Shown: in pieces, positions 6,709 to 60,835 of the stretch
How the letters are laid out: every line of letters begins with the position of its first letter
Numbering within the stretch: position 1 is the first letter of the stretch
Source of the DNA: Octopus vulgaris
Taxonomy: Eukaryota
Direction: 5' to 3'
Assembly: GCA_951406725.2 (NCBI GenBank)
Contig: OX597836.1
Span: 24,676,001 to 24,740,000, forward strand
DNA length: 64,000 bases
Program-made: the position numbers and the translations under genes
Notes under the pieces: model-generated
The model's database searches: none
Told to the model about the DNA's origin: nothing
Seen by the model: only the letters and a program-made list of their open reading frames with translations

Positions 6709-9700
6709 TATTTCAGACATAGGCAACCTTTTACGAGAAGCAGGCTGGTTTACAACAAATGTTGCAAATGTTTGTATATTTACGGTAATGTAAGGGACCA
6801 CAACGAAACTTGTGAAAGCGTCAAACTGATAGGATCGTTACCGCACCGGACGAAATATTTGGCGGGCATTTCTCCAACGCTCTTCAATCTTTCATAAGTA
6901 CCAGTTGATCACCGGGGTCAATGAAATAGGCTGGATCTACCCCGTCCTCAAAATTTCGGGCCAAAAAGAATTATACAAAACTTGTAATTAATCCTTTTGC
7001 CGAACCGCTAAGATACAGGGGCATAATCACACCAATACCTATTTCTTTATTACTCAAAAGGGGCTAAACACAGAGGGGACAAACAAGGACAGACATAGGT
7101 ATTAAGTCGATTACATCGACCCCAGTGCGTAACTGGTACTTAATTTATCGATCCCGAAAGGATAAAAGGTAAAGTTAAGCAATGTTGGGACACACACACA
7201 TACACTAATATATATATATATATACAGGACGAATTTCTTTCAATTTCCGTCTGCTAAATCCACTCATAAGACTTTGGGTGACCCAAAATGCCACGCAGTG
7301 GAACTGAAACCGGAACGATGTTGTTGAGAAGCAAACTTCTAACACCTCCATCCTAGTGATGATGTTCATGTTGATGATAACGAAATCGAGACTAAATATA
7401 AAGAATTTGAGGTTGATGTTGATGAAATTTAGGTTGTCAATATCAAAGCTGAGGGGCAAACCGAGTATATCTATATATGTATCAAAAGTAATTGGGTCTC
7501 CGTCGGTTTCAACGATGAGTAATGAGTTGTTCGATCAACCGAACACTCAGTGAATTAATGTATGTGGTACTGAGTATTGCACAGACACGCGCTTCTCCTT
7601 AACGTAATTCTTAGTTAGAAACCGCCTAAGAGCGCACGTGACAAGGTCACCTCTGTGTATGATGTTCACCTGACGGGCTTTCCATCCACTCAGTTTCGCC
7701 CACAACGTATAAGGCTGGAAAAAGTTACAGCAAAACAAACTCGGAAATCAAGGATCGATCCGGGTCTTCCTGATTCAAAGCGAATTCACTATTGCAGGCA
7801 CGCACGTACACACACACACACACATACACACAAACACAAACACACACACACACACACTTATATTATTTCCTTTACATATTTATTTTTCCACAACTGCTCA
7901 CGCCTATTAGTTTGGGCTCCAGGGAGACATCTCAAATACCAGAGACCAAAGTGTTCACTGATATTCGTGAAACTCCGAGTCGTAAGAGATATTAATTTCA
8001 GCTCTACCATATATATTTACACACTGCATCTCTGTTGAGTACTTCTTTCTCTTGATTCTTAACTCACGCATATACACACATATATACACATACATATATG
8101 TGCGTGTGCGTTATCTGCAATGCCTCCCAGTAAGATAATGTCTACGAAAATAAAGATAGGTCATCGGTTGTGTCTGTTGAAAACAACAGTCATTCTATGA
8201 TTAATATAATTATCTCTTTAAATGTCTATTTTGGTCTCAAATAAAGTCTGCTTTAAGAGAGAAACAGCATTTACCAAAGTCATTAAGTATATTTCCATGA
8301 GCAGATATGCTTTACCAATATGGCTTCTAGGTTCAAATCACACTGCAAATTTAAAATAAAAAACATTTAAAAAAGTCAACCATGCCGCCGCTTTATCGTA
8401 TAACTTTGTTCATTTAGCTGGCCCCCAAATCTCTATCATAGAAATCCTTACCATAAATTCCACTAGGCCCCCTCCTCTCCTCAATAATGAGTAGCGTTGT
8501 TTTATGTTAGAGACTCCCCCCACCATTATCATTTTCTTATGGCAGTGACTGGTGGAATCTGTAGAGTATGGTACAAGTTGCGTCTCTTTAGATTCTGGGT
8601 TCAATTCTCACTGAGGTCAAATTTGAATTTCAGCTACCCTGTGTGTTAAAATAAGTCCCAGTGGTGTATTATGATATATTTCATGGACTATGTTCTCTCC
8701 TACAAATTCCTGCTTTATTCAAATTTATGAAATAATCGGAGTTTAACATGCCTTTCAAGTGAGTTTATCAGGGACCGCGTGTTAAACCTGAAGTAAATAC
8801 ATCGTGAAAGAACCGTTTAGTAATAAACAAAACTGTTAAATTCCCTTAAATACTTGGTGTATTATTAAATGGCTATTCCGCGATGCAGTTGCTTCAGATA
8901 TCTTCACCATTGTCATTTACTTTCCCTAACTTATACATATATTATATGTATCTTTTATCTATTATTAATTTCAGTCATCAGACTACGGCCATACTGGAGC
9001 GCCGCCTTGAAGAATTTTCTAGTCGAATAAATCGAGCCTCGTACTTTTTAAAGTACTTATTACCTTTTTTTTATTTATTCTATCGGTCACTTTTGTCGAG
9101 CCGCTAAGTGCGGTGATGGGGGACAAATACACACACAAAGACACGCATACACAAAGATACAAATATATACATCGGGCTTCTTTCAGTTTCTATCTATTAA
9201 ATTTGCACACAAAGGTTTGGTCGGTACGAAGCTTTAGTAGAATGCACCCGCCCAAAGTGTTACGCGGTGGGACTGAACCCTGTACCAAGCTCTTTACTAC
9301 ACAGCCACGCCAACATACGCTCACAGATGCTCGCACACCCATACATTGTCTTAAGCGTATTATGCGCGGGCGTGGCTCTTTGGTAAGAAGCTTGCTTCAC
9401 AAACCACATGGTTCCAGGCCGAGTTTCACTGCTCGGCACCTTGAACAAGAGTTTTCTACTATAGCCCCGGCCCGACCAAAGCCTTGTGAGAGGATTTAGT
9501 TGATGGAAACTAAAAGAATGCCATGATATATATATATATATTGAGAGAGTGAGTGAGAGAGAGAGATGTATGTATGTATGTATGTATGTATGTATGTATG
9601 TATGTATGTATGTATGTATGTATGTATGCCTTTGTGTCTGCCTCCATCCACAGCTTGACAGCCGGCGTTGGTGTAGTTACGTCCCCGTAAATTAACGGTT

Positions 9701-9934
9701 CGGCAAACGCGATCGATAGAATAATTACCAGGTTTAAAAGAGTACATGGCTGCAGTCCAATGATTGGAACAAGTAAACGACAAAAGATAAAAGCGCCTAG
9801 ATGCTGCACCAGAGAACACTAGGACACTTATCCAGTAGAAACACGTGTCGGATTGGAATTTAGTGGAATGTGCAAATTTTGAAAATGTATAATTCTTCAT
9901 TCTTCTTAATGAAGTTTTGATTTTGTGTATATAT

Positions 9935-10145
9935 GGAGGCGCAATGGCCTAGTGGTTAGGGCAGCGGACTCGCGGTCGCAGGATCGCGGTTTCGATTCTC
10001 AGACCGGGCGTTGTGTGTGTTTATTGAGCGAAAACACCTAAAAGCTCTACGAGGCTCCGGCAGGGGGTGGTGATCCCTGCTGTACTCTTTCACCACAATG
10101 GCGGTGCCCCAGCATGGCCACAGCTCAAGAGCTGAAACTGGAAAA
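9935..10145 (+). mobile_element. tRNA-derived SINE family D. Related copies at 33647-33764 (-) and 28570-28860 (+)
   Basis: ggcgcaatggcctagtggttagggc...ggtttcgattc with A and B boxes; shared gaccgggcgttg...tattgagc. Confidence 0.8.
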
Positions 10146-10160
10146 AACAAAAACAAAAAC

Positions 10161-10199
<39 letters not shown>

Positions 10200-10822
10200 T
10201 GCGTACAGGTCAATGTGCAGACATTGACCAGATAACGTTGAGCCTAAGGGTCTGTGAGTCATATCAACCTCTCTATTATGACACGGCCTACCATAGGTAT
10301 TGCCTCACCTCCTTTTGATTAACTTATATAAAAAAAAAATAATTAAACAATTCTTAGTCGGGAATTAATTTGACTCTGTCTCTGGCTCCTACCAGACGTT
10401 CTTCAGGCGATACATATAAAAATGAACAGTTGAAGAACTGTATACTAACAACAGAGAGAGAGAGAGAGAGAGTATCCCGACATGGCGACAGGAGGCCGAT
10501 TATAATGTTGATACAGCACGGAGTAACATCCGTCTATGTCACCGAGTGAAGTTTACTGGGTCGAACTGACACAAGGAAAGATAACGGGGGGAACTGTGTA
10601 ACTTTGTTTGTATTTCCTCGTGCCACAGACGATAAGTACAACTCCTCTAAACTGGATGTCCTTGGGGCAAAGCAAGACTATTTTCGAGTATCACTTTCGT
10701 CTTTTAACTCTTCACTCTCGCTATTATTGTTGTTGCTGCTTTTGTTGTTGTTCCTGCTGCTTTTGTTATTTTTAATCAATTAACACCTTACCCTTGAAAC
10801 TGTTGACCTCATTCTTGAATTA

Positions 10823-10963
10823 TAAGGTTGTCCCAAAAGTTCGTAGAAAGTCTTGGAAAATAATGGTCTTTATTTTGAGGAATAATTTTTGTTGTTTTTG
10901 TTAGTACTTGGCGAGTAAAAATTCAATTTTCGCAAGTGTTTACGAACTTTTGGGACAACCTAA
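10823..10963. mobile_element. 141-bp mariner-type MITE in the vWA gene intron
   Basis: Terminal inverted repeats taaggttgtcccaaaagttcgta / tacgaacttttgggacaacctaa, with TA on both flanks. Confidence 0.9.
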
Positions 10964-11480
10964 TATTATTATTGGTAAAATTTTACCAAAATTTTAAATT
11001 CCTCTGAATTTATTGTATTACAATTTATGTCCAACTCCCGTTTACGATATTTATGTACAGTCTCACATAATGTGTAAACCCTTTGAATGACACGTTTTGT
11101 ATTATGTTTATGAACATCTGTACGAATAAAGAAATGATTGAGTCTAATCTGTCGGTTTTAGCAAGGCGCAGGCAATTAGAGAAGTTTGCAGAGCGATTAG
11201 AATGTGTCCTTCAGCTAGACACTTTATATCACGTTGCTCCAGTCCACTCAGCTGGCAAAAATGAGTTGTACAGCCTGTATTTCAAGGGGACAGCCTTGTT
11301 ACATTCCGTGTCACACTGACTCTCCCTGAGAACTACATTAAGGGTACATGTGTCAGTGGAGTGCTCAGCCACATGCACGTTAATATCACGAACATGCCGT
11401 TCCGTTGATCGGATCAACTGGAATACTCGTGGCCAGCGCGTGCATGTATGCATGCATGCATGTATGTATGTATGTATATA

Positions 11481-11670
11481 AAGGGAAAGTTTACGAAAAT
11501 AAACAAAAAGACGAAGGCAGGTGGAGTACAAACAAATAAATGTATTAGTATAGCGCTCAGGAATAGAAAAAGTCTTTTACGTTTCGAGCCTACGCTCTTC
11601 GACAGAAAGATACACAGAAAAAAACAAGGAGAGAAAAAATGCGTGTAGGAGCTAACGATCTATCATGGCG
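11481..11670 (-). mobile_element. Short hammerhead-bearing element (family with 21841-22020 and 26980-27064)
   Basis: Shared aacaaa...tatta.t...cgctcaggaa block followed by the hammerhead-like motif; abuts a TATG/TA microsatellite. Confidence 0.55.
11573..11610 (-). ncRNA. Minimal hammerhead-like motif with variant core CUGUCGAA
   Basis: Minus strand: tcttt-CTGTCGAA-gagc(gtag)gctc-GAAAC-GTA-aaaga. Perfect 5-bp stem I and 4-bp stem II. Confidence 0.7.
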
Positions 11671-12194
11671 TCCTGACTCCATGCCTTTGTGTCTGCCTCC
11701 ATCCACAGTTTGACAACCGGCGGAAGGAAAAAAAGACACAGCGCTTAGGATTTGCTTGACTCTTAAACTTTGCGAGACACAAAGCACGTTATTCGTAATA
11801 GGAACGGAAGCTAGTTGTCAGGTACGGGTGGTAGAACTCCACACTTCGATATTTGGCGGACTGCAGAAGGTGCATGCTATTCTATTCCAAGATGAGTAGG
11901 CTCTTATCAGCGGTATTTTTGCCAAATCTTCTGCAAGCAGCGACGGACTAGAAATGGTGTATGCTAATATCTACCATAACGATCTACCCCGACTCTCAGT
12001 CGAAAACGCAGACTACAACTAAAAACATATTCCAGCACTGTAATCTTGAAAATTTGAATCAGCTGTGCCACGGACAAGAAGCCGGTACTGGTTCCACTGC
12101 GAATTATAGAGTTTCATGTTAAACTTGTACACTTCTGTCTTAATGGCCGTCCATAAATGATAATTGGCATTTAGACATGTCGTATTCTGCTGCT

Positions 12195-12920
12195 AGGACT
12201 GCATCCCAAGTTGTATGGCTCTAATAGTAATGTCACAGATGGAGAAGAATCCAAACGAGGAGGATATAATAAACAGGTTGAAGACCAAAACTCTACTTAA
12301 CACAGAGTTAAAGATTTTGGCAAAAGTGCTCGATAAGAGATTTGCGCTTGTCGGAGACAGTATAGTAGGATAAACACAAATCTGAGCGATTCCCCGCATG
12401 TCTATGTAGCTTTTGGGGGCCCTTATCAATCTCTGTCTGCTAAACCGCACAACAGGACGCCTATTACTAACTAGTAACTGTTCTAGACAAAGCACGTTTT
12501 TTTAGTCCCATCTTCTAACGTTGGATCACTACAATGTACAGCGGCATTTGTTTAATGGTTAAACTAAACGGCCTCCTATCAGAACCGTTTCGTATCGTGC
12601 GCTCGGTGCCCTAAAGATACCCCTAATTCACCTCTACAGTATGTAATAACGTTAGAGTCTTTTTGGTTGCTGGAAGCGAAGGGCTGTGTCGGCAAGCATA
12701 GAGAACATTATTGTCATGGTGTGTGACACATCGGATATCAAATTGGTTGGTACTATTTTAGAAAAGCACGAGGAAATATTAGGATTACATGTTAGTAGGG
12801 ATTATTCAACGGCTTATAACTCATCGTCAGCAGGGATAAAGTTACGTGGGATGGTGGTTTCTGTTACTGAACTTAGGGTCCAGTTAAGCTGCTTTGGATT
12901 TGTTTCGAGCCAAATCTTAC
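12195..12920 (+). mobile_element. Decayed L1/Tx1-clade LINE reverse transcriptase fragment
   Basis: TLLNTELKILAKVLDKRF...TQI*AIP and VKLNGLLSEPFRIVRSVP*RYP correspond to the RT motifs 'ITLLNxDYKILAK' and 'SVRQGCPLSP'. Contains stops and frameshifts. Confidence 0.8.
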
Positions 12921-13537
12921 GACTCTTTATGTACAGTGTTCAAATCCCGCCGAGATGAACCTTGCCTTTCATTCTTCTGGAGTCGATAAAATAAAGAATC
13001 ACTCAAGTACTGGGGTCGATATAATCGACTGATACCTTCCACCAAAATTTCTAGCCTTCCCCAAGAAACTGTTGTTGTTCTTGTTGTTGTCGGGATTGGC
13101 AGAATCGCTAGAACGTCGAACTTGCGGCATCCGTCCGTCGTCTCTTCAAGTTCTGAGTTTCAAATCCCACACAGGACAGCCTCTGCCTTTCATCCAGTCG
13201 AAGTCGACGTGAAAAAGTACCAGTCATACACTGGGGTTGGTATAATCAACTTACAACCCACCAAAATTTGTTTAACCTGTACATATGTTAGAAATTATTG
13301 TAGTAGTAGTAGTAGTAGTAGCAGCAGCAGCGGCAGCACCTACCAGCAGCTACAAAATCCCATCACTGTCACTATCAATGCAATATCATCATCATCATCA
13401 ACATTGCCATCATCACTTTTTTTTCTTGTATTGTTTCTCTTATTGTATTTTGTTGTATCATTTGTCTTGTTGCTTGCAGACAGAATTCTGTTCCTTTGTG
13501 ATTAAGAAATGGGTAATATAACTATATATATATATAT

Positions 13538-13915
13538 AAATGAAAGAAGGGAGTTGAACGACGATTTAACAAAATTCCTTTATTCTCGACATATGTTTCG
13601 AAGGCTGCATATTCCTAATTTCGAAGGAATAAGGAGTACATTATGCCACCTTCTCATCAGGAAAAACAAGGAACTTATGTCAACATCAAGATGAACAAAA
13701 ACTTTTAGATGACTGCCCACACGGAGCCCATAGGAATTTTGTTAAATAGTCGTTCAACTCCATTCTTTCATTTATTTGTATTGAAAAAACACACAAATTT
13801 CCACACGAAAGCACGTGATTTCTGCCCTTGGCATGTAGCTTCAACCGTGTTTTTCTGACGTGAATTTGCTACCCAGGTATCGGTTAACCGAATTATCCAT
13901 ACTAAGATAATTCAT
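13538..13915 (-). mobile_element. Penelope-like pLTR remnant with an internal inverted repeat enclosing the ribozyme, between TA microsatellites
   Basis: About 13538-13579 (aaatgaaagaagggagttgaacgacgatttaacaaaattcct) is the inverted repeat of about 13732-13773. About 13735-13910 is the reverse complement of about 20735-20910. Confidence 0.65.
13577..13671 (-). ncRNA. Type I hammerhead ribozyme, Penelope-type, canonical core
   Basis: Minus strand: ccttgtttttc-CTGATGA-gaaggtggcata...tatgcagccttc-GAAA-catatg-TC-gagaataaagg. Stem I, a long stem II and a palindromic minimal stem III are present. Predicted GUC cleavage between 13588 and 13587. Confidence 0.85.
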
Positions 13916-13922
13916 TCAACTA

Positions 13923-13968
<46 letters not shown>

Positions 13969-14789
13969 AATTTCCCCTGATAAGAATAGAACTTGTGATG
14001 TTGTTTCCGCGGTTTTCATAAATGAATAAATAACAGGCGTGGTTTGGGATTGAGAAGCACTTGGGTGTACAGCTATAGTTGCAGTCTTTACTGCAAGCAA
14101 AATACACTGCACATCTATTTTTATTTGTTGTATTACTCAGAGAGAGGAAGGGATGCGTGCCATGGTCGGTGGCGACCCCTATTGTGTAACTGTGGTGGAT
14201 GGTTGAGGGTATTAACGAGGATATTGTTTTTGTTGGGGCGGGTTGTCAGCGATGGCCGCTTGTTTGTTTGAAACATGTGCTGAGAGAATGTGCTATTACT
14301 GATTGCTAGGAATGATACAAAAATGCATGTTGTTTTTGTTCACATACACATGTACATATATGCATACGTGCATACATAGATATTGTTTGATGTGGGTTGC
14401 TTTTATGTGAGAAAAGCATTTTTCTATTAATAAATTTAACTATTTAATTTCCACTAATAATTGTCTCATATTTAGCTTCAGTTTCTGTCGGAAATATAAA
14501 CAAATTCGTTATAAATAGATTGCAGAGTAACCGCTGGAGATTTGCTTCTTTTTTCGTTTCAGTTGTTTTTCTTAAAAAAAAAAAAAAATGTGATTCACCC
14601 GAGTTAAAGGAAATAAGAGTGAAAGTCAAAAACTGCTTCGTTAATATTGTGTGAGTGGATGAGTGGATAATAAATAAATAAGTTAAGAAATATAGGAAAC
14701 TGTTGAATTTAGGGATGAGGCAAGGAAATGCGCACAATCAAATGTGTGGATAATTATTATAAAAAAAAATATTAAAACTGACTAATAGT

Positions 14790-15195
14790 TAGATTAGTGG
14801 GTCAAAGAGGAAATACGACCAGCTATGTTTGTGGGCTGACGAAGACATTCTGACGTTTTGGTGGCATGTAAATAGATAAGGAAATACCGATTCTTTGGTC
14901 TGTGGGAAGAAAAGGAAATACCTAGAGCTATGTCTGTTGGTAAACAGAGGATATAGTTAATAAGCAGACGTCTGTGTAAACATGGAGATTGGTATGGCCA
15001 ATGCTGTGGTCTGAGAAGAGAATAAATTCGGTTAAAGCCGCGGATAGACAAGGAAACAGTGTGGGTTAAGTACGTGGTTGAAAAATAAATGCTTTTATGA
15101 AAATCTGTGGGTAAACAAAGAAATATCTACAACTATATTTGTAAGTGGATAAAGTAATAAATATCACTGAATTTCTGAGTAGATAAGTGAAATCT
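14790..15195. repeat. Degenerate array with a period of about 34 bp (about 12 units)
   Basis: GGAAATA-like motifs start at about 14809, 14843, 14880, 14914, 14949, 14984, 15018, 15052, 15085, 15119, 15153 and 15187. Approximate consensus tctgtgggtagacaaggaaata plus about 12 variable nt. Confidence 0.7.
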
Positions 15196-16473
15196 TTGAG
15201 ACTGTTATGATTTGCCATAATTACACCGATTCATGAACTCTGATAAGGAATAGAAATGTGTATAAAATTTCCCACTCTCTTTGACTGGATGATAGACAAA
15301 AACCACTCGAGTGAATTTAATATGGCTAATGTTGAATTTGAAATCTTTCAGCTGTGGGAAAAAATTGAGCAAGGATGGATTGCCGGACCAGGGAATAAAC
15401 CCTGCTAAGTTATAAATGATGGAAGTTAATTAAGTCAGGGTTTACAGACTGAGAGATGATGAGTTTAGACTAATTGGATAAAATCAGACATAGTCAGCTG
15501 CAAGAGTAAAGAAGGAATTCTAACATCTCGATATTTGAATAAACCAGCTTGAAGTATATTAACGCTAAATGTCTTAATACTAACACGAAGCATGTTAGAA
15601 CAATGATTGGCAGTGTTTTGGGAACTCTTGGAAAAGTAGTGCCTCATCACTAGGTTTACCATTCTGTCAGTCTGCTGTAAAAGTGACAACATGCTAAGGG
15701 AACACTGTCTCAGACTGTCACTTTTATGTTGCATTAGACATGTACCGCAGTACAAGTCTATGGATCGATCTATATCACATTCTGCTGGCCACTTCATCTC
15801 GCGTCGGTCCCAGAAAACCACATGGACAACAACGTGTACCATGCTTCCCTCGATAAACAAGACCATGTCCCACTCCTTGATCAAAGCAGCCTTTGATTTG
15901 CCATTAAAGGACATGTGAAAAACCTCTTCTATTCGTGAAGCAGATACGTCAACTTCCTCCATGGCTGCTATTAGACAAATTTCTCGGGTAGAGAGACACA
16001 GTGAGTCATAGGTGCTTCTCAGACTGGACATTGAGAAATCTAAAATTTCTTGTGTGGACACGACCTTAGCAAAGCTGCGATGTTTTGTTGTTTGTTTAGC
16101 AGATCAAAATCACACTCATTCTTATCAAAATCCACAGAAATATAATTTTTGCTTCTTCATAATAATGTGTGCTCTGTTTTGCAATATTTTTGCCTTTTCC
16201 TTCCTTTTTTTTTTTTTGTTTCTTTTATGTACAGCAGGCAAAGGTTTTTACTTGGAGGCAACGTTAACGTTTCTCGTTAAGTTAAAATATCCCTTTTTCT
16301 TTTCCAGTCTAGTCGAAAAAAATTCAACAAATTGCTTGCCTTTTTTCAAACAGTTCAAATGACTCGACAGAGAAATGGGGATTCAGATCAGAAAAAAAAA
16401 ATCTACAAAAAATAAAAAGTTTTTAAACAAGTCTTGCTACAGTAAAATTCACAGATAATAATGATTTCTAATA

Positions 16474-16535
<62 letters not shown>

Positions 16536-16567
16536 TCAATATTTTTATTTTCTTTTTCTAATTTTAG

Positions 16568-16857
16568 TGAGAAAGAAGAAATACTGGCGCAGTGCAGTGT
16601 TGTTAGTGTTAAGTTCTTGGAATTACTGCGATGAAAATACTCTTGGAGAAGCGGTACTTATCAAAGAGCATTCTGACGTCTATGTTCTTCTCATCGGACC
16701 GGAACCGGATTCTACCCAAATAGTTTGCTTCTCGAGCCTGGCATCGCAACCTATTCAAGACCACTACATCAGGCTCCCGGATTCGGAGACTCTAAATAAG
16801 TTCATTGCAAAAGTTCTTGTAGCCCAGTTCAAAAACACGTTCTGTTACAATCAATGA
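16568..16857 (+). CDS. Terminal coding exon of the same vWA-domain protein
   Basis: Polypyrimidine tract plus tttTAG acceptor (16566-16567). A(1371)+TG(16568-16569) keeps the frame. RSAVLLVLSS...EAVLIKEHSDVYVLLIG...LASQPIQDHYIRLPDSETLNKFI...FC matches the vWA C-terminal half. Stop TGA at 16855-16857; ATTAAA at 16901. Confidence 0.78.
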
Positions 16858-18533
16858 AGATGGCGACATCATCTCCGGCCAAAACGCTTGAAATCATAAC
16901 ATTAAACAGAGGTTTCTAAACATTTTGTTATTCTTCAGTAAAAAAAAAACTAAAGCTTCTATAAACTGGATTCTGCCGAACTGAAATATATCAATGTACA
17001 GCTTAATGTGTATTTGATGTTCTGCTCTTTTCTGTAGGTGTTAGACATTTAAGCAATGGTGGGCAGTTCATGAACTTCCTAAGGATTTTGCTAAAGACGA
17101 GACCAATTTTCATACAGTGTTTTATCGACTTATTTGATTATGATCTCTGATTAAGTCTACTTCCAGATCACTATCGAAGCCTTTCTTCCCATATTGGTTT
17201 TATTTGCTCCTTTTACGAGAGTTTATATTAATTATTATATTTCTGCTTTTTGTGTGACAAACCAACGACCTTCTCATTCAAGTCCCCGGCTTGACAAGAT
17301 TACAAGGTTTCGATTCTTGGTCGTTGCTATTGTTTATCTCTGGAGATAACTTTGGAAATGGAGGAAGGCAACAGCCTCATATCCTTCAATGTTTGCTCTG
17401 TTATATGTGAAAATTGAGTTTATTCCACAAACTATTGTACAGTTTTCTTCAGATTGTAACATATTAGCTTCAGTAAAGTTTGAAATCAAGACCATATTGC
17501 CAGTCGTTCAGTTTCTTAACAGAACGTTCATTTATCAACAACTCGCATACATATTCATAGACAAACATAGTTAACCCCTTAAAAAAAAAAAAATACTCCG
17601 CCGGTTACGACGACGAGGATCCCAGCTGATACGATCAACGGAACAGCTTGCTCGTGAAATTAACGTGCAAATGGCTGAGCATTCCACAGACACGTGTACC
17701 CTTAACGTAGTTCTCGGGGATAATCAGCGTGACACAGAGAGTGACAAGGCTGACCCTTTGAAATACGAGTACAACTCATTTTTGCCAGCTGAGTGGACTG
17801 GAGCAACGTGAAATAAAGTGACTTGCTCAAGGACACAACGCGTCGCCGGGAATCGAACTCACAACCTTACGATCATGAGCCGAATGCCCTAACCACTAAG
17901 CCACGCGCCCTCACAGTTAACCCCTACACTTATACATACATACAATGCTTCTTTTAACAGGATATTTGTGTTAAATTACTGCTTATTACAAATGACACGC
18001 GATGGCGGAATCGTTAGCGCATCAAGTAATAAAATGCTACAGAGGCATTTCTTCCGGCTCTTTACGTTCTGGGTTCAAATTCCGCCGACGTTGACTTTGC
18101 CTTTCACCCTTTCGGCGTCGATAACGTATGACCTAATAGAACTCGGCTGTTATCTCTACCATATCAAGCGAGCACGTAGATTCCTCCTCTTTAGTCCTTT
18201 ATTGTTAGTTGTTGCTGATAGAACACAAATGATAACAAAGTCGCTCCAGATATGATCCTCACACACAGACCATCTCTATTTTCTAATGTGTCCTTATAAA
18301 ACTTTAAGGTGTGTTTTTATACCCTCCAGTCACAAAAGAGCTCTATTATTATTATATGTTTGGCTTTTGCTTTGTATTTGTACAAGTTGACTCCAAGTCT
18401 CACCCAGAGACCTCACGAGACATCAAATTAGAAGTTCGAGTTCGTGCTAGGCCTAGGGTGCCATATATTTGGTTTTGCACAAAGTATAGTTCTAGAGAAT
18501 GCCTGTAAAAAACATAAGTATATTAGATTATTA

Positions 18534-18599
<66 letters not shown>

Positions 18600-20081
18600 T
18601 TGTTCAATCACTGCACTGTTCCATAAAAGGAAGATTTGTATTTCAGGTGTTATTTGAAGAGAGTGAGACTCCGAAAATATACCAGACTGAGGGATTCTTC
18701 TGTGAGAGGACTGTTAAATGTTTTCGAGTTGTTTTCTAAATATATTGCTGTATCCGGAATTTCCTAGAGTCGTTTTCTCTAGCATTTCTCTTGTGTTATT
18801 AAACTACTCGAAGGCAGCAATTCGGTTGAATCGTTTACGCACCAGACAAAACGCTTAGCGGCATTTCTTCCCGCTTTGCATTCTGAGTTCAAATACCGTG
18901 GTCTCCACCCTACCTCTCCTAGTTTCGGGGTCAATGAAATAAGTGCCAGTTGAGCCTCACCTATAAAATTTCAGGCCTTGTGCCTATAATAGAAAGGATT
19001 ATTAAACTACTCGACTTTAGAATCCATGCATTTAACACACTGTCACATTCACTTAAACTCCCTACAAAAATTGTTCCTTTACATAGATACATATACGCAC
19101 AAATACACACGCACACATATTTATGAATGTATGTATACTCTTTACTCTTTTACATGTTTTAGTCATTTGACTGCGGCTATGCTGGAGCACCGCCTTTAGT
19201 CGAGCAAATCGACCCCAGGACTTATTCTTTGTAAGCCCAGTACTTATTCTATCGGTCGCTTTTGCCGAACCGCTAAGTGACGGGGACGTAAACACACCAG
19301 CATCGGTTGTCAAGCAATGCTAGGGGGACAAACACATATACATACATACAAATACATATATATACATATATACGACAGGCTTCTTTCAGTTTCCGTCTAC
19401 CAAATCCACTCACAAGGCATTGGTCGGCCCGGGGCTATAGCAGAAGACACTTGCCCAAGATGCCACGCAGTGGGACTGAACCCGGAACCATGTGGTTGAT
19501 TAGCAAGCTACTTACCACACAGCCACTCCTATAAATGTGTATATATGTGTATATACGCATATGCATATAGCTAATATTTTTGGTTGCCATGAATCGGAAT
19601 AATATCTAGAAATATTTGAAAGCCTGTAATGGTCGAATAACCGATCGATTCATGCAATAGCTTTAAAAATAAAACCTAAAATGTTATTTTCTAAAACTGA
19701 ATCTCACAATCGATGTTATTTGTGGTCACAAGTTGGAATTTTCTATTAAGGAATTTCAAGATACCTAGCTGGTGGACATCGGACAACCTTGAATGATATT
19801 GTTAATAAGAAACAGAAAGAGTTATGGAGTTGCTAGTTAAGAAAACAATTATATTTCATGGGATACAACTAGGACTTATGCTAGGAGGTGCAATAAGCAA
19901 GAGTGCATTAGCCATGCACTCTTCCTTATTAAACAACTATTAGTGAGTTTCTGAGTAAAGATCAAACTATCAAACAGGTATCCGTTCATCTGGAGAAGGC
20001 CTTTAACAGGGTATTTTATTCTGTGGTCTGCTGATGATCGCTAAGTAAACTAGACGTGCATAGACAGACAGACAGACAGAC

Positions 20082-21840: not shown

Positions 21841-22020
21841 AAAGTTAATCCAAACAAGAAAACAAAAAGACAACAACGCAAGGATGTGGAACAAATAAAG
21901 TATTATTGGACGCTCAGGAAAGAAGGGAAGAAGGAGGGTTTGACGGTTCGGGCGGAGCTCTTCGTCGGAAACATAGGAGAAAGAAAGATCCCGAGACGGG
22001 AGGACAGAGGGAAAAAAATC
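21841..22020 (-). mobile_element. Short hammerhead-bearing element copy
   Basis: acaacaacgcaaggatgtggaacaaataaagtattattggacgctcaggaa is near-identical to the 27000-27050 region; follows a long (TA)n tract. Confidence 0.55.
21938..21972 (-). ncRNA. Degenerate minimal hammerhead motif
   Basis: Minus strand: gttt-CCGACGAA-gagc(tcc)gccc-GAACC-GTC-aaac. Stem I is intact and the core has substitutions; it occupies the same position in its element as the 11573 motif. Confidence 0.55.
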
Positions 22021-24571: not shown

Positions 24572-26857
24572 ATGTATACATATCCATGTATATATATATA
24601 AATATATATATATATACATAATGCGTGATAAAGTGCCAGTACAATGGAGGAGTCACTGAGTAATTCCCAGAGATCCAATTACTTCATCGGGATAAGGGGT
24701 AGTCCAGAGGTAGAAAAGCCATCTAGAAAGACGATCGAAATGGAGCGTGTATCGAAGAATGACGGAAAGGCAATAACAGGAGTAAAGAATATATTGATAT
24801 GAAAACATGCACATACAATTTACTTGATGTAAGCAGTTCTTGTCTTTACAGCTGTTTCAAACAATCCGCGAACGGTTAATATTACAATGCATATTATGCA
24901 AACAGGTGCAATACTGACGCAATAAACATAAAATCAAAAATAACATCAACTATTTTGATGACTGAGCATCTCCGTGCGACAAAGTGCAATATTTTAACTT
25001 AGAATCATTATCGTAAACTCAATCTGAATATTTAAGTTTCATTCCACGAAGAAGGTTTTTGTAGTTGTTCTCATCATGTGGACAACCAGAGAAGGATTTA
25101 GCAAATAGAGAGAAACAGAAATGTCATCTTGAAAGTTTTAACGTTAATCTTTTTTTTTTCTTTATTGCCCACAAGGGGCTAAACATAGAGGACAAACTAG
25201 GGCAGACAAAGGGATTAAGTCGATTACATCGATCCCAGTGCGAAACTGGTACTATTAATCTATTATTTTAGCTCAGTTGCTTCCCTTGGATTAGTCAAAC
25301 TTGAAATTATATGAAAATGGGAACAACTAACAGTCTCTGCATCGCTTGTATTGCTTTTCAACTCCCGATAAACTTGAAGAAGACATAAGATGAGTGTTGT
25401 TTAAATTCGTTCCTGGTCAGCCGTGTATGGAATTAAATATATTTATTCTAGGGATCAGACTTAATGGAGTAGATTCTTTCGGCTCATGATCATAAAGTCT
25501 CAAGTTCAATTCCCTGCGGTGTGTTGTGTCCTTGAGCAAGACAAGAGGCTAAACATAGAGAGGACAAACAAGGACAGACAAAAGAATTAAGTCGATTACA
25601 TCGACCCCAGTGCGAAACTGGTACTATTAATCTATTATTTTAGCTCAGTTGCTTCCCTTAGATTAGTGGACTCCAGTCCACTCAGCTGGCAAAAATGAGT
25701 TGTACCTGTAAAGGATTAGCTTTGTCACATTCTGTGTCACACTGAATCTGCTTGAGAACTACATTAAGGATACATGTGTCAGTGGAGTACTCAGCCACTT
25801 GGATGTTAATTCCACGAGCCGGTCGTTCCGTTGATCGGAATAACTGGAATCCTCGTCGTCGGAAACGACAGTGCCATAGCTCTGTCAACAAGGACCAAGG
25901 ATGGATCCCAAGATAATCTGAGGATTGAGAAGGTTTCAGTAGCGTTTAGAACTTTTAAGATAAATATCTTGTGAGAGAGCAACTTGAAACGAAGCTTGCA
26001 TCATTACGTTCCTGTCATACGCTTTTGAGAGATAAACCCCACACCGATTGCTCAATAAAATATCCGAAAGGTTTCACCTGGAAATTAAAAAAGGGGGGAA
26101 CATTTGGCAGCGTTTGTTCATAAGTTTAATCGATCGATTAGATTATACCTCAAAATTTCTGGGTGTATTCCTACTCTGAGGAACGTCAGATGTGTTTGTG
26201 TGTTATAGTTTGTTTCTAAAATCACTGTTACAGACAACCTCACTTTAATAATAAGAAGCACTAATTAAATTATTCTCATCTAAAGACTATGACTTATGTT
26301 AAGGTTCAAATTTCCTAAAATATTCAGTGAGCGACTGAAATTTTTAATTATATAAAATAGTCATTCCTTGTGTTTTATGTAGGACTAAATTTTATTCGAA
26401 TCAAAGTTCTAAGAATTGTCCAAAACTTCATTTTCGTCAGATTAACGCCAGCTGTAATTCATAAACTTATTCTAGTAATTAATGCTGAAAGGTCTTCCCT
26501 AATGAGCGAGGTCACAAATTCCCTGTGTCTATGGAATGTATGATTGCATACATTGTCCAAGTGTCCAGCATCGGTGTAAATCTCTTGAAATAAAACAACG
26601 CTCCCTAGAGTACCTCATTACAGCGAGGAAGCATTCTATAGCAGTGGAATGCCAGGCTGTGGCAGCATGCTTTGAAATTCTTGAACCAGCAGACAGAAGA
26701 CTTCGGGAATATAAAAGACAATGAACGGCTTATCCTCTTTATTCTTGGAAATTCATGTTTTTAAAAAAAAAAAATAGTTATTTGCATTGCAGACTGAGAC
26801 AATCACGCAATTAGATATATATGCACATGCATAAAATTAAACACTTTGGCATATACC

Positions 26858-26979: not shown

Positions 26980-26983
<4 letters not shown>

Positions 26984-27063
26984 ACACAAAGAGAAAACAC
27001 AACAACGCGAGGACGTGGAACAAGTATAGTGTTATTGGACGCTCAGGAAAGGAAAGAAAGAAG

Positions 27064-27064
<1 letters not shown>
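26980..27064 (-). mobile_element. Truncated copy of the same short element, lacking the ribozyme
   Basis: acaacaacgcgaggacgtggaacaagtatagtgttattggacgctcaggaa, flanked on both sides by (TA)n. Confidence 0.55.
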
Positions 27065-52497: not shown

Positions 52498-53543
52498 TCA
52501 AGCTTGATAAGCCTGATTGTCGACTCCTTGGGGTGGTGCTCCTTGGGTTGCATCTCCTTGGGGTGGTGCTCCCTGGGGTGGGTAACCTTGAGGTGGGTAG
52601 CCTTGAGGTGGGTAGGCGCCTTGGGGTGGGTAGCCTTGTGGTGGGTAGCCTTGTGGTGGGTAGCCTTGTGGTGGGTAGCCTTGAGGGGGTGGCTGTGGGT
52701 AGGCAGCCTGTTGTGCTTGCATTTTCTGCATCATTGCCATCATTTCTTTCATTTGTGCAGCATCAACGGATTCACCGCCGCCGCCGCCTTCGGATGGTGC
52801 AACTTCTGCTTCGGCATCGTTAGCATCTTCGCATTCTTTCTCATTGAACTGACAACATGTCAACAACCATGGGAATGTGTTTTGGATGGCCTCTCTGAAC
52901 TTTGGATGGGAAACAGAGTAGACAATTGGGTTGTGGATAGCTGAAGCTTTAGCAAACAGGACAGGCAATTCAGCTGCATAAGGAGTAACCCATTCAGCTG
53001 GCCCAAACTGTGCAAGAAGAGCGATGACGGCGTATGGAGACCAGGAGAGCATGAATTGGGTAATAATTACCATTGAAATTTTGGCAAGTTTCATTTCAGC
53101 GCTCTGGCCAGCCTGTGCCTTACGCAATTCTTTGGCATTCAACCTCTTAGCCATGGCAGCCATTTCCTTTTCGTGGTTGGATACAGACATGACAATGTTG
53201 AAGTAACAGAAAGCGATGATAACTACGGGCAGCATGAAACCCATGAAGTACATGCACAAGATAAAAGATCTGGTATTAGAATCAGTAGACAGGTAATCAA
53301 AAGAGCAAGATGTAAGAATACCTTCAGGGACGTATGCTCCCCAGTTGAAGACGGGGCCGACAGCCCAAACAATGGACCATATCCACACAAAGATAATCAT
53401 GAGGAAAGCTCTTCTATGGGACATTTTCTTGGATGCCGCCATAGGTCTACCGATGACATTGTAACGATCGATGGAGATCATGGCCATGGTATTAATTGAC
53501 ATGAATCCGAAGATACCGCCCAGCAAACCATAAAGTTGACAAG
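52498..53543 (-). CDS. RHO: Rhodopsin, last coding exon (TM3-TM7 plus PPQGY-repeat tail)
   Basis: Acceptor ttctAG (53545-53544). Contains C109/C187, DRY(133-135), E181, Schiff-base K306 (LFAKASA), NPIVY, HPK, a CC palmitoylation pair and the cephalopod (PPQGY)n tail. Spliced CDS is 185+137+1046 = 1368 nt = 455 aa plus stop. Confidence 0.99.
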
Positions 53544-54403
53544 CTAGAAAGAGAGGAAAGAGAGAAAAAACAGTGAAAACAAGAAATACAAATAGACATG
53601 GTGAGGTAGAGATAAGGAGGAAAGATGAAGATAATTAAAGTAGGTGGGGACTAAATAATTGGTAAAAACATTGTTTAGACATCAATCATTTTGAAGGTGC
53701 AGATCGATGAGGATGCAGCTACAAATAGTAGATGTAATATATTGGGTTTTAAAAAATTCCTTTGAATAGAAAAAAAGGCTGAAGATTATCTGCGAGCTCG
53801 ACACTTCATCTTCTATATGGAGACGACAATGAAGCCTCTTATGTGATAGTTCTACGGAAGATACATGGTTGAAGCCCGGCAATAACTTTCAGACTTTGTT
53901 TTCATTCGAGGGTTATTTAATCCAATATATTACATATGCTTCATAGTTGTGTTCATTGTGAAAATCATTTCAATTACGTTTTCTCAATGTAAATGTATTA
54001 ATTAGTGTAAGGATATTAATTACACTAAAAATATTATTCAAAACATTAAAACTTGTTTCGTACATAAGTTATATTTAATGAACTAATATTTTAGCCAACA
54101 TGAATCGCCGTAAAACTGTTGTGTGTTTAAACAGCTAAATACTGTAAGCATTATAATAGTCTATTGTTAACATTATAATGCAATACACTATCAGCTTCAC
54201 TAGATACAATAAATCATCGATTATATTTCGATACAAATAAAAGCAAAACGAATTATTAAACACTCGATATTCTGTGATTTGATTTTAACTTTACGACAGG
54301 TATTTTACTGTATTTCTGTCACAGAGCCCTTGACCAGACGTGCTGTTGTTTCATTTATAAATAACACCGGGTCTACTGGAGATAAGGGAGCCTCTGTGTG
54401 ATA

Positions 54404-54544
54404 TAAGGTTGTCCCAAAAGTTCGTAGAAAGTCTTGGAAAATAATGGTCTTTATTTTGAGGAATAATTTTTGTTGCTTTTGTTAGTACTTGGCGAGTAAA
54501 AATTCAATTTTCGCAAGTGTTTACGAACTTTTGGGACAACCTAA
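54404..54544. mobile_element. 141-bp mariner-type MITE in a rhodopsin intron
   Basis: Same TIRs and TA flanks; one substitution seen relative to 10823-10963. Confidence 0.9.
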
Positions 54545-55268
54545 TAGCTTGATCTTTTAAAAATAATACCTAAATTATTCTGAAATTACTCCTTTGTTTT
54601 AGAAAAGGACATATTGAATAATGTGATTTTGGATATCCTTCAAATAGAAAAATGACGAGATAATCACAGCCGGAATGCCTTTTAATGTAAGTGTACTCGA
54701 CTAAGGCTGACTTGGAACAAAACAATATCAGTAACCAGGTTTTCTTGAACCAAGCCTGTTTGTGATTGCTTGACTTAAAAGCAGCAGTCGATTCTCCCTT
54801 AAAGCGTACACTACCATCCAAGATTAGATTGTATTAGATCGGATGGCTTTAGATGCAGTGTTTTTCATCAAAGGTGTGCTCCATTCAGAGCTAAGTAACA
54901 GGCAGGTGTTCTGATATAGTCGCTCTACTTGCACCCAAACACGCTGGAGATCTTATACTGCCGGTTTAAGAAGGAACAATGGATAATCGAATTCATGCCA
55001 TCTTATTTTCAGGTACATGAACTCGATTAGAATGATTTCGCTCATCGAATTGTTGGATTAGGTCTGACCAAAGAGCCTTAACAATAGTAATCATATCTCT
55101 GTCACCAACATCAGCATGTCTTTCCGTCATATAGGAACAACATCTCAGCCTCCTTCAAAGGCCTTGTGCCAAAATTTGAGACCAATATTTCCCAGATTTC
55201 TAGATCGTTAAGGGTAGCTAATGCAATGAAGCCCAGTATGAAGTGGAAAAAGGAAAATAAATACTTAC

Positions 55269-55405
55269 CAACTTTACCGAAAATCCACTTTTTCATAAAC
55301 GCCGATATCGTTTTAAGCGGAAATCCATTAATAGCTGAGAAAGACAAATCAGACATAGCGAGATTGATGATAAACATGTTAGCCGGGGTCTGAAGAGATT
55401 TCGTC
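55269..55405 (-). CDS. RHO: Rhodopsin, second coding exon
   Basis: Acceptor ttccAG (55407-55406) and donor GTAAGT (55268). The 137 nt encode TKSLQTPANMFIINLAMSDLSFSAINGFPLKTISAFMKKWIFGKV (TM2); phases 2 and 1 match the neighbouring exons. Confidence 0.99.
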
Positions 55406-56615
55406 CTGGAAAAAAAGAAGGAAGAAAAGAAAAAAAAATGATTAGTGGAAATTAGATGTCCGTTACGTCACATTCATAATTACTGCTGGCTTTTTTATTC
55501 AAAAATTTGCTTTAGGTAAACAAAGAAGAAATTAATTATTTGATAAATGTTATAGGATTTCCTACAATATATTTCATTATGTATAAGTTTATATTTTACA
55601 TTGACCACAACGGTAAATGATAAAATGAAAGTCTTGCAAATATTTATTATTAGTGTTGATGTAACCATACGAATAAAAGTAAGATGAACTCGCTCACAGG
55701 GGGTTAGAGCCCAGTTCTTTGGGTAACGATGATGAAGGTCCTGCTTACAGCTTGGTCAACTGGGTAAAAATGTTCGTATCAATCTATAACCGATTAAATC
55801 AATCAGGTATGATGGTAATTGAATATACCTGGTTGCATAAATTTATGACCTTCAACCAACATGAGCAATCATTTTGTTACTCATTGCTAGCTAAAGCATG
55901 ATTAAGCTGTACTTGAAAGCTGTACTTCACGACTGCACTTGAAGTGAACGTGCGATAAATCCTGCTGAGAAAGCTTTGACCCTGATAACATTCTAAGAAA
56001 CATCATGGCGTCTAATGACTTCACTCGAGGATACGAGGAAACTTCTATGAGATCACTTAAATCGACAGAAATCGCACCCTATTACCTCATAAAAAAAAGT
56101 CATGGTGGATTACATTATCGTACGTTCGCTGCACATAAGGAAAAGGGAGGATGGTCATGGCTGACATCTCGTTGTTAGTATGTCTCCTCAGTCAAGCTGA
56201 CCTGAGATTAAACAACAGCACAACAACAACATCAACAACAACCACAGATGGTTGCACTGGGCCAGCTTTCTATTCAAATACACTATGAACTTTTTATTTT
56301 AATTTCACTTAGTTGATTTTTCAAACGTGAGACAAGCCAACGAGAACGCCTCAACGTGGTCACACTCACTCTACCAGCTAAAAATAGTAGCCAAATATCT
56401 CTCAAATCACATCATACCGACTTAAAAAGGGAAATGCAGTTTCAATAATGTGATGCTACATATATTGTGATTGAAACCGTGTGATCCTAGTTATAATGTA
56501 ATGACGAATTAAAAGTGAGACTTAAACAACAACAACAACAACAACCATTTATCAAGATGACTTCTGTTTTGTTTTTTTTTTGTTCTTTTTTTTGTTTTGT
56601 TTTTTTCATACTTAC

Positions 56616-60803: not shown

Positions 60804-60835
60804 CTGATGAGGTCTAAAAAGAACGAAACATTGCC
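60804..60835 (+). ncRNA. Degenerate hammerhead motif
   Basis: CTGATGA-ggtc(taaaaa)gaac-GAAAC-att-GCC. One stem II mismatch, a mutated cleavage triplet, and no clear stem I. Confidence 0.4.

What the first reader, a model, noticed from the sequence alone, without database searches (positions are those of the whole stretch)
11481..11670. Short microsatellite-associated element family with a non-canonical hammerhead core (CUGUCGAA)
Seen: tcttt-CTGTCGAA-gagc(gtag)gctc-GAAAC-GTA-aaaga has perfect stems, but U replaces the normally invariant A6 and there is an extra A before stem II. The relative at 21938-21972 has a different yet still complementary stem I (gttt/aaac), a covariation that supports the fold. 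A third copy (26980-27064) is truncated before the motif. All three abut TA-rich microsatellites in the same orientation. Inference: an abundant non-coding ribozyme-bearing retroelement family of about 190 bp. If U6 is the family consensus, it would be a natural hammerhead core variant that standard searches miss.
Basis: partly seen in the sequence, partly recalled or inferred. Interest (0 to 1): 0.72.

Follow-up and report, generated by a model that had tools for sequence, protein, structure and literature searches.

The report
U6 hammerhead in cephalopod repeat family
An abundant ~195-base repeat in a cephalopod genome carries a hammerhead-ribozyme-shaped motif in which a normally invariant core base (A6) is U across the family, so it is likely a natural ribozyme variant of Penelope-type mobile elements, though whether it still cuts RNA is untested.

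Summary
The motif is real (minus strand, 11573-11610). Its stems are intact, and a relaxed descriptor hit only 1 of 300 resampled windows. Contigs of four DNA runs laid on the element at 80% likeness or more (7,554-19,353 contigs per run) show no alternative letter at position 6 reaching 5%, while neighbouring N7 takes all four letters. U6 is therefore the family consensus, not a copy mutation. The same architecture in 118 metagenome loci has A6 in 118 of 119 matches, three of them just downstream of Penelope-like ORF pieces. The extra A is not new: it is the published 9/10.1 nucleotide of Penelope-like minimal hammerheads. The copy at 21938-21972 has A6 but three other defects. Best reading: a non-autonomous Penelope-like (probably Neptune-mobilised) element with a U6 minimal hammerhead that likely cleaves weakly, as a dimer or with protein help. 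Activity, expression and an autonomous partner are untested, and published mutagenesis predicts low activity at position 6. No natural U6 variant was found in the papers searched, but a key 2017 paper was unavailable.

The parts
11481..11677 (-). Copy 1 of a ~195-bp non-coding repeat; inferred RNA sense is the minus strand, 3' end at the microsatellite
   Evidence: depth profile, many contigs ending at 11669-11670, 7,554-19,353 contigs laid per run
11606..11610 (-). Hammerhead stem I, 5' arm
   Evidence: the outermost position 11610 varies in 19-24% of depth
11598..11605 (-). Core C3 U4 G5 U6 N7 G8 A9 plus the extra nucleotide before stem II
   Evidence: only N7 has rows at the 5% cut-off
11602..11602 (-). 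U6, replacing the canonical A6; family consensus
   Evidence: no row at 11602 in any of 4 runs at the 5% cut-off
11601..11601 (-). N7, all four letters present in the family
   Evidence: non-reference share 57-79%; only position of 210 with three alternative letters
11586..11597 (-). Stem II (4 bp, G10.1-C11.1 closing pair) and 4-nt loop
   Evidence: predicted P(10.1:11.1) = 0.96; fold
11578..11585 (-). G12 A13 A14 A15.1, palindrome ACGU (11582-11579) in place of helix III, H17 at 11578; predicted cut between 11578 and 11577
   Evidence: H17 is A or U (U in 2-22% of depth), no G row
11573..11577 (-). Hammerhead stem I, 3' arm
11542..11563 (-). Motif downstream of the ribozyme shared by copies 1-3 and resembled by loose ends of a second subfamily
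   Evidence: table 7
11441..11480 (.). Microsatellite abutting the element's 3' end (inferred insertion target)
11681..11722 (.). Piece of another repeat. At 9626-9667 the same piece follows an (ATGT)n array directly, so copy 1 likely interrupts that repeat's microsatellite
   Evidence: 95% over 42 nt; array 9566-9628
21842..21975 (-). Copy 2, diverged sister lineage; degenerate hammerhead 21938-21972 with A6 at 21965
26981..27064 (-). Copy 3, 5'-truncated about 6 nt downstream of the predicted cut site, between two TA arrays

Best explanation
This is one copy of an abundant ~195-bp repeat whose hammerhead-shaped motif has U instead of A at core position 6 across the family; it is likely a non-autonomous Penelope-like element whose RNA is predicted to self-cleave weakly after GUA. 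Shown: the motif, U6 as consensus, free variation at N7 and A/U at H17, and microsatellite-abutting ends. Inferred: (1) The minus strand is transcribed. (2) With no helix III, two copies pair through the ACGU palindrome, or the element's protein assists, and cut between 11578 and 11577. (3) U6 lowers the rate and is predicted to favour a closed monomer (U6:A15.1, G5:C15.2), so much RNA stays uncut. (4) A Neptune-type reverse transcriptase/GIY-YIG protein acting in trans copies mostly uncut RNA into TA/ATGT microsatellites, sometimes 5'-truncated as in copy 3.
For: U6 fixed: no letter reaches 5% at 11602 in 4 of 4 runs from 4 studies and 4 organism labels, while N7 beside it shows three alternatives. 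Two of those (G>T 16-25%, G>C 7-8%) cannot be CpG decay. Loose ends (the listed rows at 11568/11569 and 11608/11609 hold 85-334 contigs each) show a subfamily that shares only about 11569-11609 and has other flanks. Its marker letter at 11610 makes up 19-24% of depth, so it too is likely U6 (inference). All other features match the published consensus of Penelope-like minimal hammerheads (PMC4209133 text and supplement part 2). The same architecture with A6 lies 101-677 nt downstream, same strand, of Penelope-like ORF pieces in L143, L184 and L197: RVT_1 E=5e-8 in L143; a GIY-YIG hit below cut-off in L184 (E=0.0018); CxxC linker and GIY-YIG-like motifs seen in the L143/L197 alignment. Microsatellite bias is reported for Neptune and Naiad PLEs (PMC8557442). 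A natural A6C hammerhead keeps low activity (PMC3088659; PMC7151607). A PLE hammerhead was protein-assisted and uncut RNA was the main insertion substrate (PMC11167929). Predicted U6:A15.1 pairing P = 0.39 and G5:C15.2 P = 0.41, against a mean of 0.002 for G5:C15.2 in 100 distinct A6 motifs.
Against: No cleavage or transcript shown. In a full mutational scan, CUGA-turn mutants other than the C3/G8 swap had low activity and were not rescued (PMC9901934 passages). Core constancy alone is weak evidence: 1 of 12 core positions has a row against 23 of 210 overall. Copies keep about 100 nt upstream of the cut site, so cleavage is not needed to make them. No ORF is linked to this family; the ORF links are for other animals' A6 motifs, and Pfam found nothing on 2 of the 3 endonuclease pieces. 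Copy 2 has A6, and lineages under 80% likeness were not sampled. Head-to-tail joints were seen in only single contigs (tables 5 and 5c). The motif does not fold better than shuffles (z = 0.61), and the unconstrained two-copy fold did not give the textbook dimer. Contig depth is not copy number.
Confidence: 0.58

Rival explanations
1. U6 killed or nearly killed catalysis in the founder of a non-autonomous PLE lineage. The fold is kept only as a signal for the PLE protein, or simply hitchhiked through amplification.
For: Position-6 changes give low activity. Ribozyme-dead mutants of a PLE still inserted in vitro (PMC11167929). Copies include sequence upstream of the cut site. U6 is predicted to favour a closed, inactive pairing.
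Against: Variation in the family falls on the positions that catalysis leaves free (N7 four letters, H17 A/U with no G row), and apart from CpG-type changes no core row appears. A second subfamily keeps the ribozyme while its flanks diverged.
Confidence: 0.3
2. The element is a tandem non-LTR retrozyme or a SINE-like element with its own circular RNA cycle, not a pLTR-derived PLE dependant.
For: Short and non-coding; monomer of about 195 bp; rare joints that go back 175 nt (11668 to 11494) in single contigs of runs X4 and X7.
Against: The hammerhead is the minimal PLE type, not the canonical type I of retrozymes (PMC7229834 passages). The three window copies are dispersed monomers or 5'-truncated. 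A 2026 preprint derives such retrozymes from PLE pLTRs anyway (abstract).
Confidence: 0.08
3. U6 is a private mutation of this copy and the family has A6.
For: Copy 2 has A6. One sporadic U6 was seen among 119 metagenome matches (L192).
Against: No alternative letter reaches 5% at 11602 in 4 of 4 runs, although 11601 and copy-private 11537 (98-99.6% other letter) are readily detected.
Confidence: 0.03

Closest known systems
Minimal type I hammerheads (min-HHR) of metazoan Penelope-like elements (Cervera and De la Pena 2014, PMC4209133)
   Same: Short helix I, no helix III, palindromic 15.2-16.2, extra nucleotide between 9 and 10.1, G10.1-C11.1, U-rich upstream flank, mostly dispersed single copies
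   Different: U at position 6; all 44 alignment rows in supplement part 2 (Fig. S3; part 1 not read) have A6, and the consensus is CUGANGAH. The only core variant described in the text read is U3-A8.
Natural A6C hammerhead of phage Bcep176, and the A6a insertion variant (PMC3088659; PMC7151607)
   Same: Natural change at core position 6 with the rest of the core intact; low but detectable activity, Mn2+-favoured for A6C
   Different: C rather than U; a single phage locus rather than a family-wide state of a high-copy animal repeat; not the PLE minimal dimer type
Neptune-clade PLEs and non-autonomous pLTR derivatives (PMC8557442)
   Same: Microsatellite-biased insertion with no discernible target-site duplication, hammerhead near the 3' end, 5'-truncated copies
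   Different: No ORF linked to this family here; clade assignment inferred from other animals' loci L143 and L197
Metazoan non-LTR retrozymes (PMC7229834; bioRxiv 10.64898/2026.07.22.740005)
   Same: Short non-coding hammerhead-bearing repeats of similar size
   Different: Retrozymes are tandem with canonical type I hammerheads; this family appears mostly monomeric with a minimal U6 motif

Membership tests
PLE minimal type I hammerhead | Core C3 U4 G5, G8 A9, G12 A13 A14, A15.1, U16.1, H17 | tested here: met
   the only family-level row among these is CpG-type at G12 (2-5%), and H17 is A/U
PLE minimal type I hammerhead | A at core position 6 (CUGANGAH) | tested here: not met
   U6 in copy 1 and across the family; hence filed as a variant, not a plain member
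PLE minimal type I hammerhead | Extra nucleotide between 9 and 10.1; G10.1-C11.1; palindromic 15.2-16.2; short helix I | tested here: met
PLE minimal type I hammerhead | Compensatory changes in the stems across the family | tested here: inconclusive
   one both-sided change in stem I between copies 1 and 2; one search gives unphased letters only
PLE minimal type I hammerhead | Self-cleavage as a dimer or with protein | not testable with these tools
   needs an assay
Penelope-like element (Neptune type) | Linked RT plus GIY-YIG ORF flanked by pLTRs | tested here: inconclusive
   no such ORF recognised by eye in the ORF list near any copy (not scanned with profiles); no genome held; link seen only for A6 motifs in L143, L184, L197
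Penelope-like element (Neptune type) | Insertion at microsatellites, 5' truncation | tested here: met
   3 of 3 copies; interrupted (ATGT)n of another repeat; copy 3 truncated
Non-LTR retrozyme | Tandem arrays with canonical type I hammerhead | tested here: not met
   copies dispersed, minimal motif, back-joints only in single contigs; contigs collapse tandems, so the tandem part of the test is weak
Non-LTR retrozyme | Circular RNA expression | not tested
Rfam hammerhead families | Score at the gathering threshold | tested here: not met
   no hit; A6 controls also 0 of 14, so not informative about U6

The most novel reading that the evidence does not exclude
A catalytically active natural hammerhead with a CUGU core, kept under selection through several subfamilies of a very high-copy cephalopod retroelement. 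U6 would act as a built-in latch (pairing with A15.1) that keeps the monomer uncut until dimerisation, the element's protein or a metal such as Mn2+ opens it. That would relax a position treated as invariant and imply that CUGA-based surveys have missed a whole layer of animal ribozymes.
Probability: 0.3. Interest if true: 0.78.

Novelty: new variant of a known kind. Interest (0 to 1): 0.58.

Why it matters
A6 is treated as part of the invariant hammerhead core; the one natural substitution found in the papers read is a single phage A6C. A family-wide U6, with N7 and H17 varying as a working hammerhead allows, gives a natural test of an open question: whether Penelope-like elements need their hammerheads to cut, or only to fold. 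Either result is informative. It also shows that descriptor searches fixed on CUGANGA overlook an abundant motif in this animal lineage.

Tried and rejected
No genome held for this window, so no assembly-based count or ORF linkage. Rfam: nothing at gathering over the window, no hammerhead at E<=10 locally or in 14 A6 controls. Metagenome scan: none of the 118 loci was recognised as this family; its pattern allowed only A or T at position 6, and many hits are the same host sequence in several assemblies (100 distinct A6 contexts). A wider descriptor on those 349,611 bases gave 76 A6 and 1 U6, but the loci were selected for the motif. No RNA holder was listed for the stretch; no evidence on expression either way. 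Folding z-scores were uninformative. Only 4 of 24 listed runs were laid. Literature: searches ('hammerhead'+'A6U': 2 listed; one read and it concerns twister, the other seen only as a listing) found no natural U6 hammerhead and no cephalopod hammerhead study. An octopus repeat annotation has 0 occurrences of 'ribozyme' or 'hammerhead' in its main text (PMC13282606; supplement not read). Lunse, Weinberg and Breaker (RNA Biol 14:1499, PLE hammerhead variants) is not held and its text or supplements may already contain U6 examples. Repbase/Dfam were not available. The scan's earlier notes held nothing on this sequence.

Full report
Observation. On the minus strand, 11610-11573 forms a type I hammerhead layout: stem I of 5 bp, core C3-U4-G5-U6-C7-G8-A9, one extra A, a 4-bp stem II closed by G10.1-C11.1, GAAA, the palindrome ACGU in place of helix III, and a GUA site. 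A descriptor that allows any letter at position 6 finds only this site in the window, and 1 of 300 Markov resamples of the window gave a hit. Copy 2 (hammerhead 21938-21972) is 68.6% identical over 121 columns. Its stem I has one compensatory change, but it carries A6 and three defects: C4, C15.1 and a stem II mismatch. Copy 3 is 87% identical to copy 2 and begins about 6 nt downstream of the predicted cut site. All three start within 4 nt of a microsatellite edge, against 0.8% of non-array positions within 6 nt of one. Copy 1 appears to interrupt the (ATGT)n tract of another repeat, whose uninterrupted form is at 9566-9667. The window encodes a rhodopsin with XYPPX repeats (52498-53634 minus). 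From recall this marks a cephalopod, probably an octopus; this was not tested further.

Is U6 the family state? No genome was held, so I laid assembled contigs of 4 of the 24 listed runs (X2, X4, X7, X8; four organism labels, four studies) on 11481-11690 at 80% likeness, listing letters from 5%. 19,353, 16,666, 11,439 and 7,554 contigs were laid. Rows appear at 23 of 210 positions. Position 6 (11602) has no row in any run. N7 (11601) is the only position with three alternative letters; its non-reference share is 57-79%, and two of the three changes are not CpG-type. H17 shows A or U (U 2-22%) with no G row. The method does detect copy-private letters: 11537 reads another letter in 98-99.6% of depth. 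Depth peaks over the ribozyme, and loose ends at 11568/11569 and 11608/11609 reveal a subfamily with different flanks that shares about 11569-11609. Its marker letter at 11610 is 19-24% of depth, so it is likely U6 as well (inference from unphased data). Limits: each other letter is bounded only at under 5%; lineages under 80% likeness, such as copies 2 and 3, are not covered; contig depth is not copy number; and constancy of the 12 core positions (1 row, CpG-type at G12) is not by itself beyond the background of 23 in 210. The signal of selection is where variation falls, not its absence.

Control in other animals. A metagenome scan for the same architecture with A or T at position 6 returned 118 loci and 119 matches: 118 A6 and 1 U6 (L192, whose apparent relatives L140 and L147 have A6). 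Many are repeats of the same host DNA. In L143, L184 and L197 the motif lies 677, 101 and 191 nt downstream of ORF pieces on the same strand. L143 has an RVT_1 hit (E=5e-8). L184 has a sub-threshold GIY-YIG hit (E=0.0018). The L143 and L197 pieces are 58% identical and show a CxxC linker and GIY-YIG-like motifs by eye, though Pfam found nothing on them. This ties the architecture to Neptune-like PLEs, but not this family directly.

What is known. Cervera and De la Pena 2014 (PMC4209133; parts 1-2 of 4 of the text, and supplement part 2 of 3 plus term search) define the PLE minimal hammerhead, with a conserved nucleotide between 9 and 10.1, a palindromic 15.2-16.2 and low dimer activity. All 44 alignment rows seen have A6. 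So the extra A is ordinary. Perreault 2011 (PMC3088659; section 8 and passages) and PMC7151607 (passages) describe a natural A6C with k under 0.1 per min and a Mn2+ preference. PMC9901934 (passages) reports low activity for CUGA-turn mutants other than the C3/G8 swap. PMC11167929 (passages) shows a PLE hammerhead that cuts only with the element's protein and is dispensable for insertion in vitro. PMC8557442 (passages) reports microsatellite bias for Naiad and Neptune PLEs and used a 'cuganga' string descriptor. Also seen: PMC7229834, PMC6765202, PMC6155905, PMC8967140, PMC11014351 and PMC11662667 (passages), bioRxiv 10.64898/2026.07.22.740005 (parts 1-2 of 5), and PMC13282606 (part 1 of 3 and term search). 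None of what I read mentions a natural U6 hammerhead. The Lunse et al. paper on PLE hammerhead variants could not be read. Rfam misses the motif but also misses 14 of 14 A6 controls.

Mechanism. Most likely the repeat is a non-autonomous derivative of a PLE terminal repeat, mobilised in trans by a Neptune-type protein that inserts at TA/ATGT microsatellites (inferred). Its RNA would cut after GUA only as a dimer through ACGU or with protein help, and slowly (inferred; untested). Copies keep about 100 nt upstream of the cut site, so the template was mostly uncut RNA, which fits a weak ribozyme. U6 also makes U4-G5-U6 complementary to A15.1-C-G: predicted pair probabilities are 0.39 (U6:A15.1) and 0.41 (G5:C15.2), against a mean of 0.002 (maximum 0.038) for G5:C15.2 in 100 distinct A6 motifs. 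This could be a latch or simply a misfold; the energy gap is about 0.2 kcal/mol, and the free two-copy fold did not return the textbook dimer. The main rival is a dead ribozyme kept as a protein-binding fold or by hitchhiking (0.30). A retrozyme-type element (0.08) and a copy-private mutation (0.03) are less likely.

Verdict. Observation confirmed. New variant of a known kind, interest 0.58. If a cleavage assay shows regulated activity of the CUGU core, 0.78.

Noticed in passing
window 52498-55467 (minus): Rhodopsin gene: long ORF 52498-53634 with 7tm_1 and XYPPX hits and an apparent upstream exon near 55111-55467; points to a cephalopod host.
   Followed up: partly
window 45021-44994 (minus) and 60804-60831 (plus): Two further hammerhead-like strings with canonical A6 but broken stems, possibly decayed motifs of other Penelope-like families.
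   Followed up: partly
window 27064: Copy 3's 5' truncation falls about 6 nt downstream of the predicted cut site; could reflect a cleaved template, or chance in low-complexity sequence.
   Followed up: no
window 11203-11430: Another dispersed repeat of about 220 bp just left of the microsatellite, with copies at 2149-2364, 17613-17837 and 25671-25856 (84-87% identity).
   Followed up: no
window 11494-11668: Rare head-to-tail joints (11668 to 11494 in runs X4 and X7; 11670 to 11501 in X4; 11636 to 11567 in X2), each at single-contig depth: a few tandem copies probably exist.
   Followed up: no
L192:2466-2494: One sporadic U6 minimal hammerhead in a non-cephalopod-like family whose apparent relatives (L140, L147) have A6.
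   Followed up: partly
L143, L184, L197: Penelope-like ORF pieces (RT and GIY-YIG-like, Neptune-type CxxC linker) with an A6 minimal hammerhead 101-677 nt downstream.
   Followed up: partly
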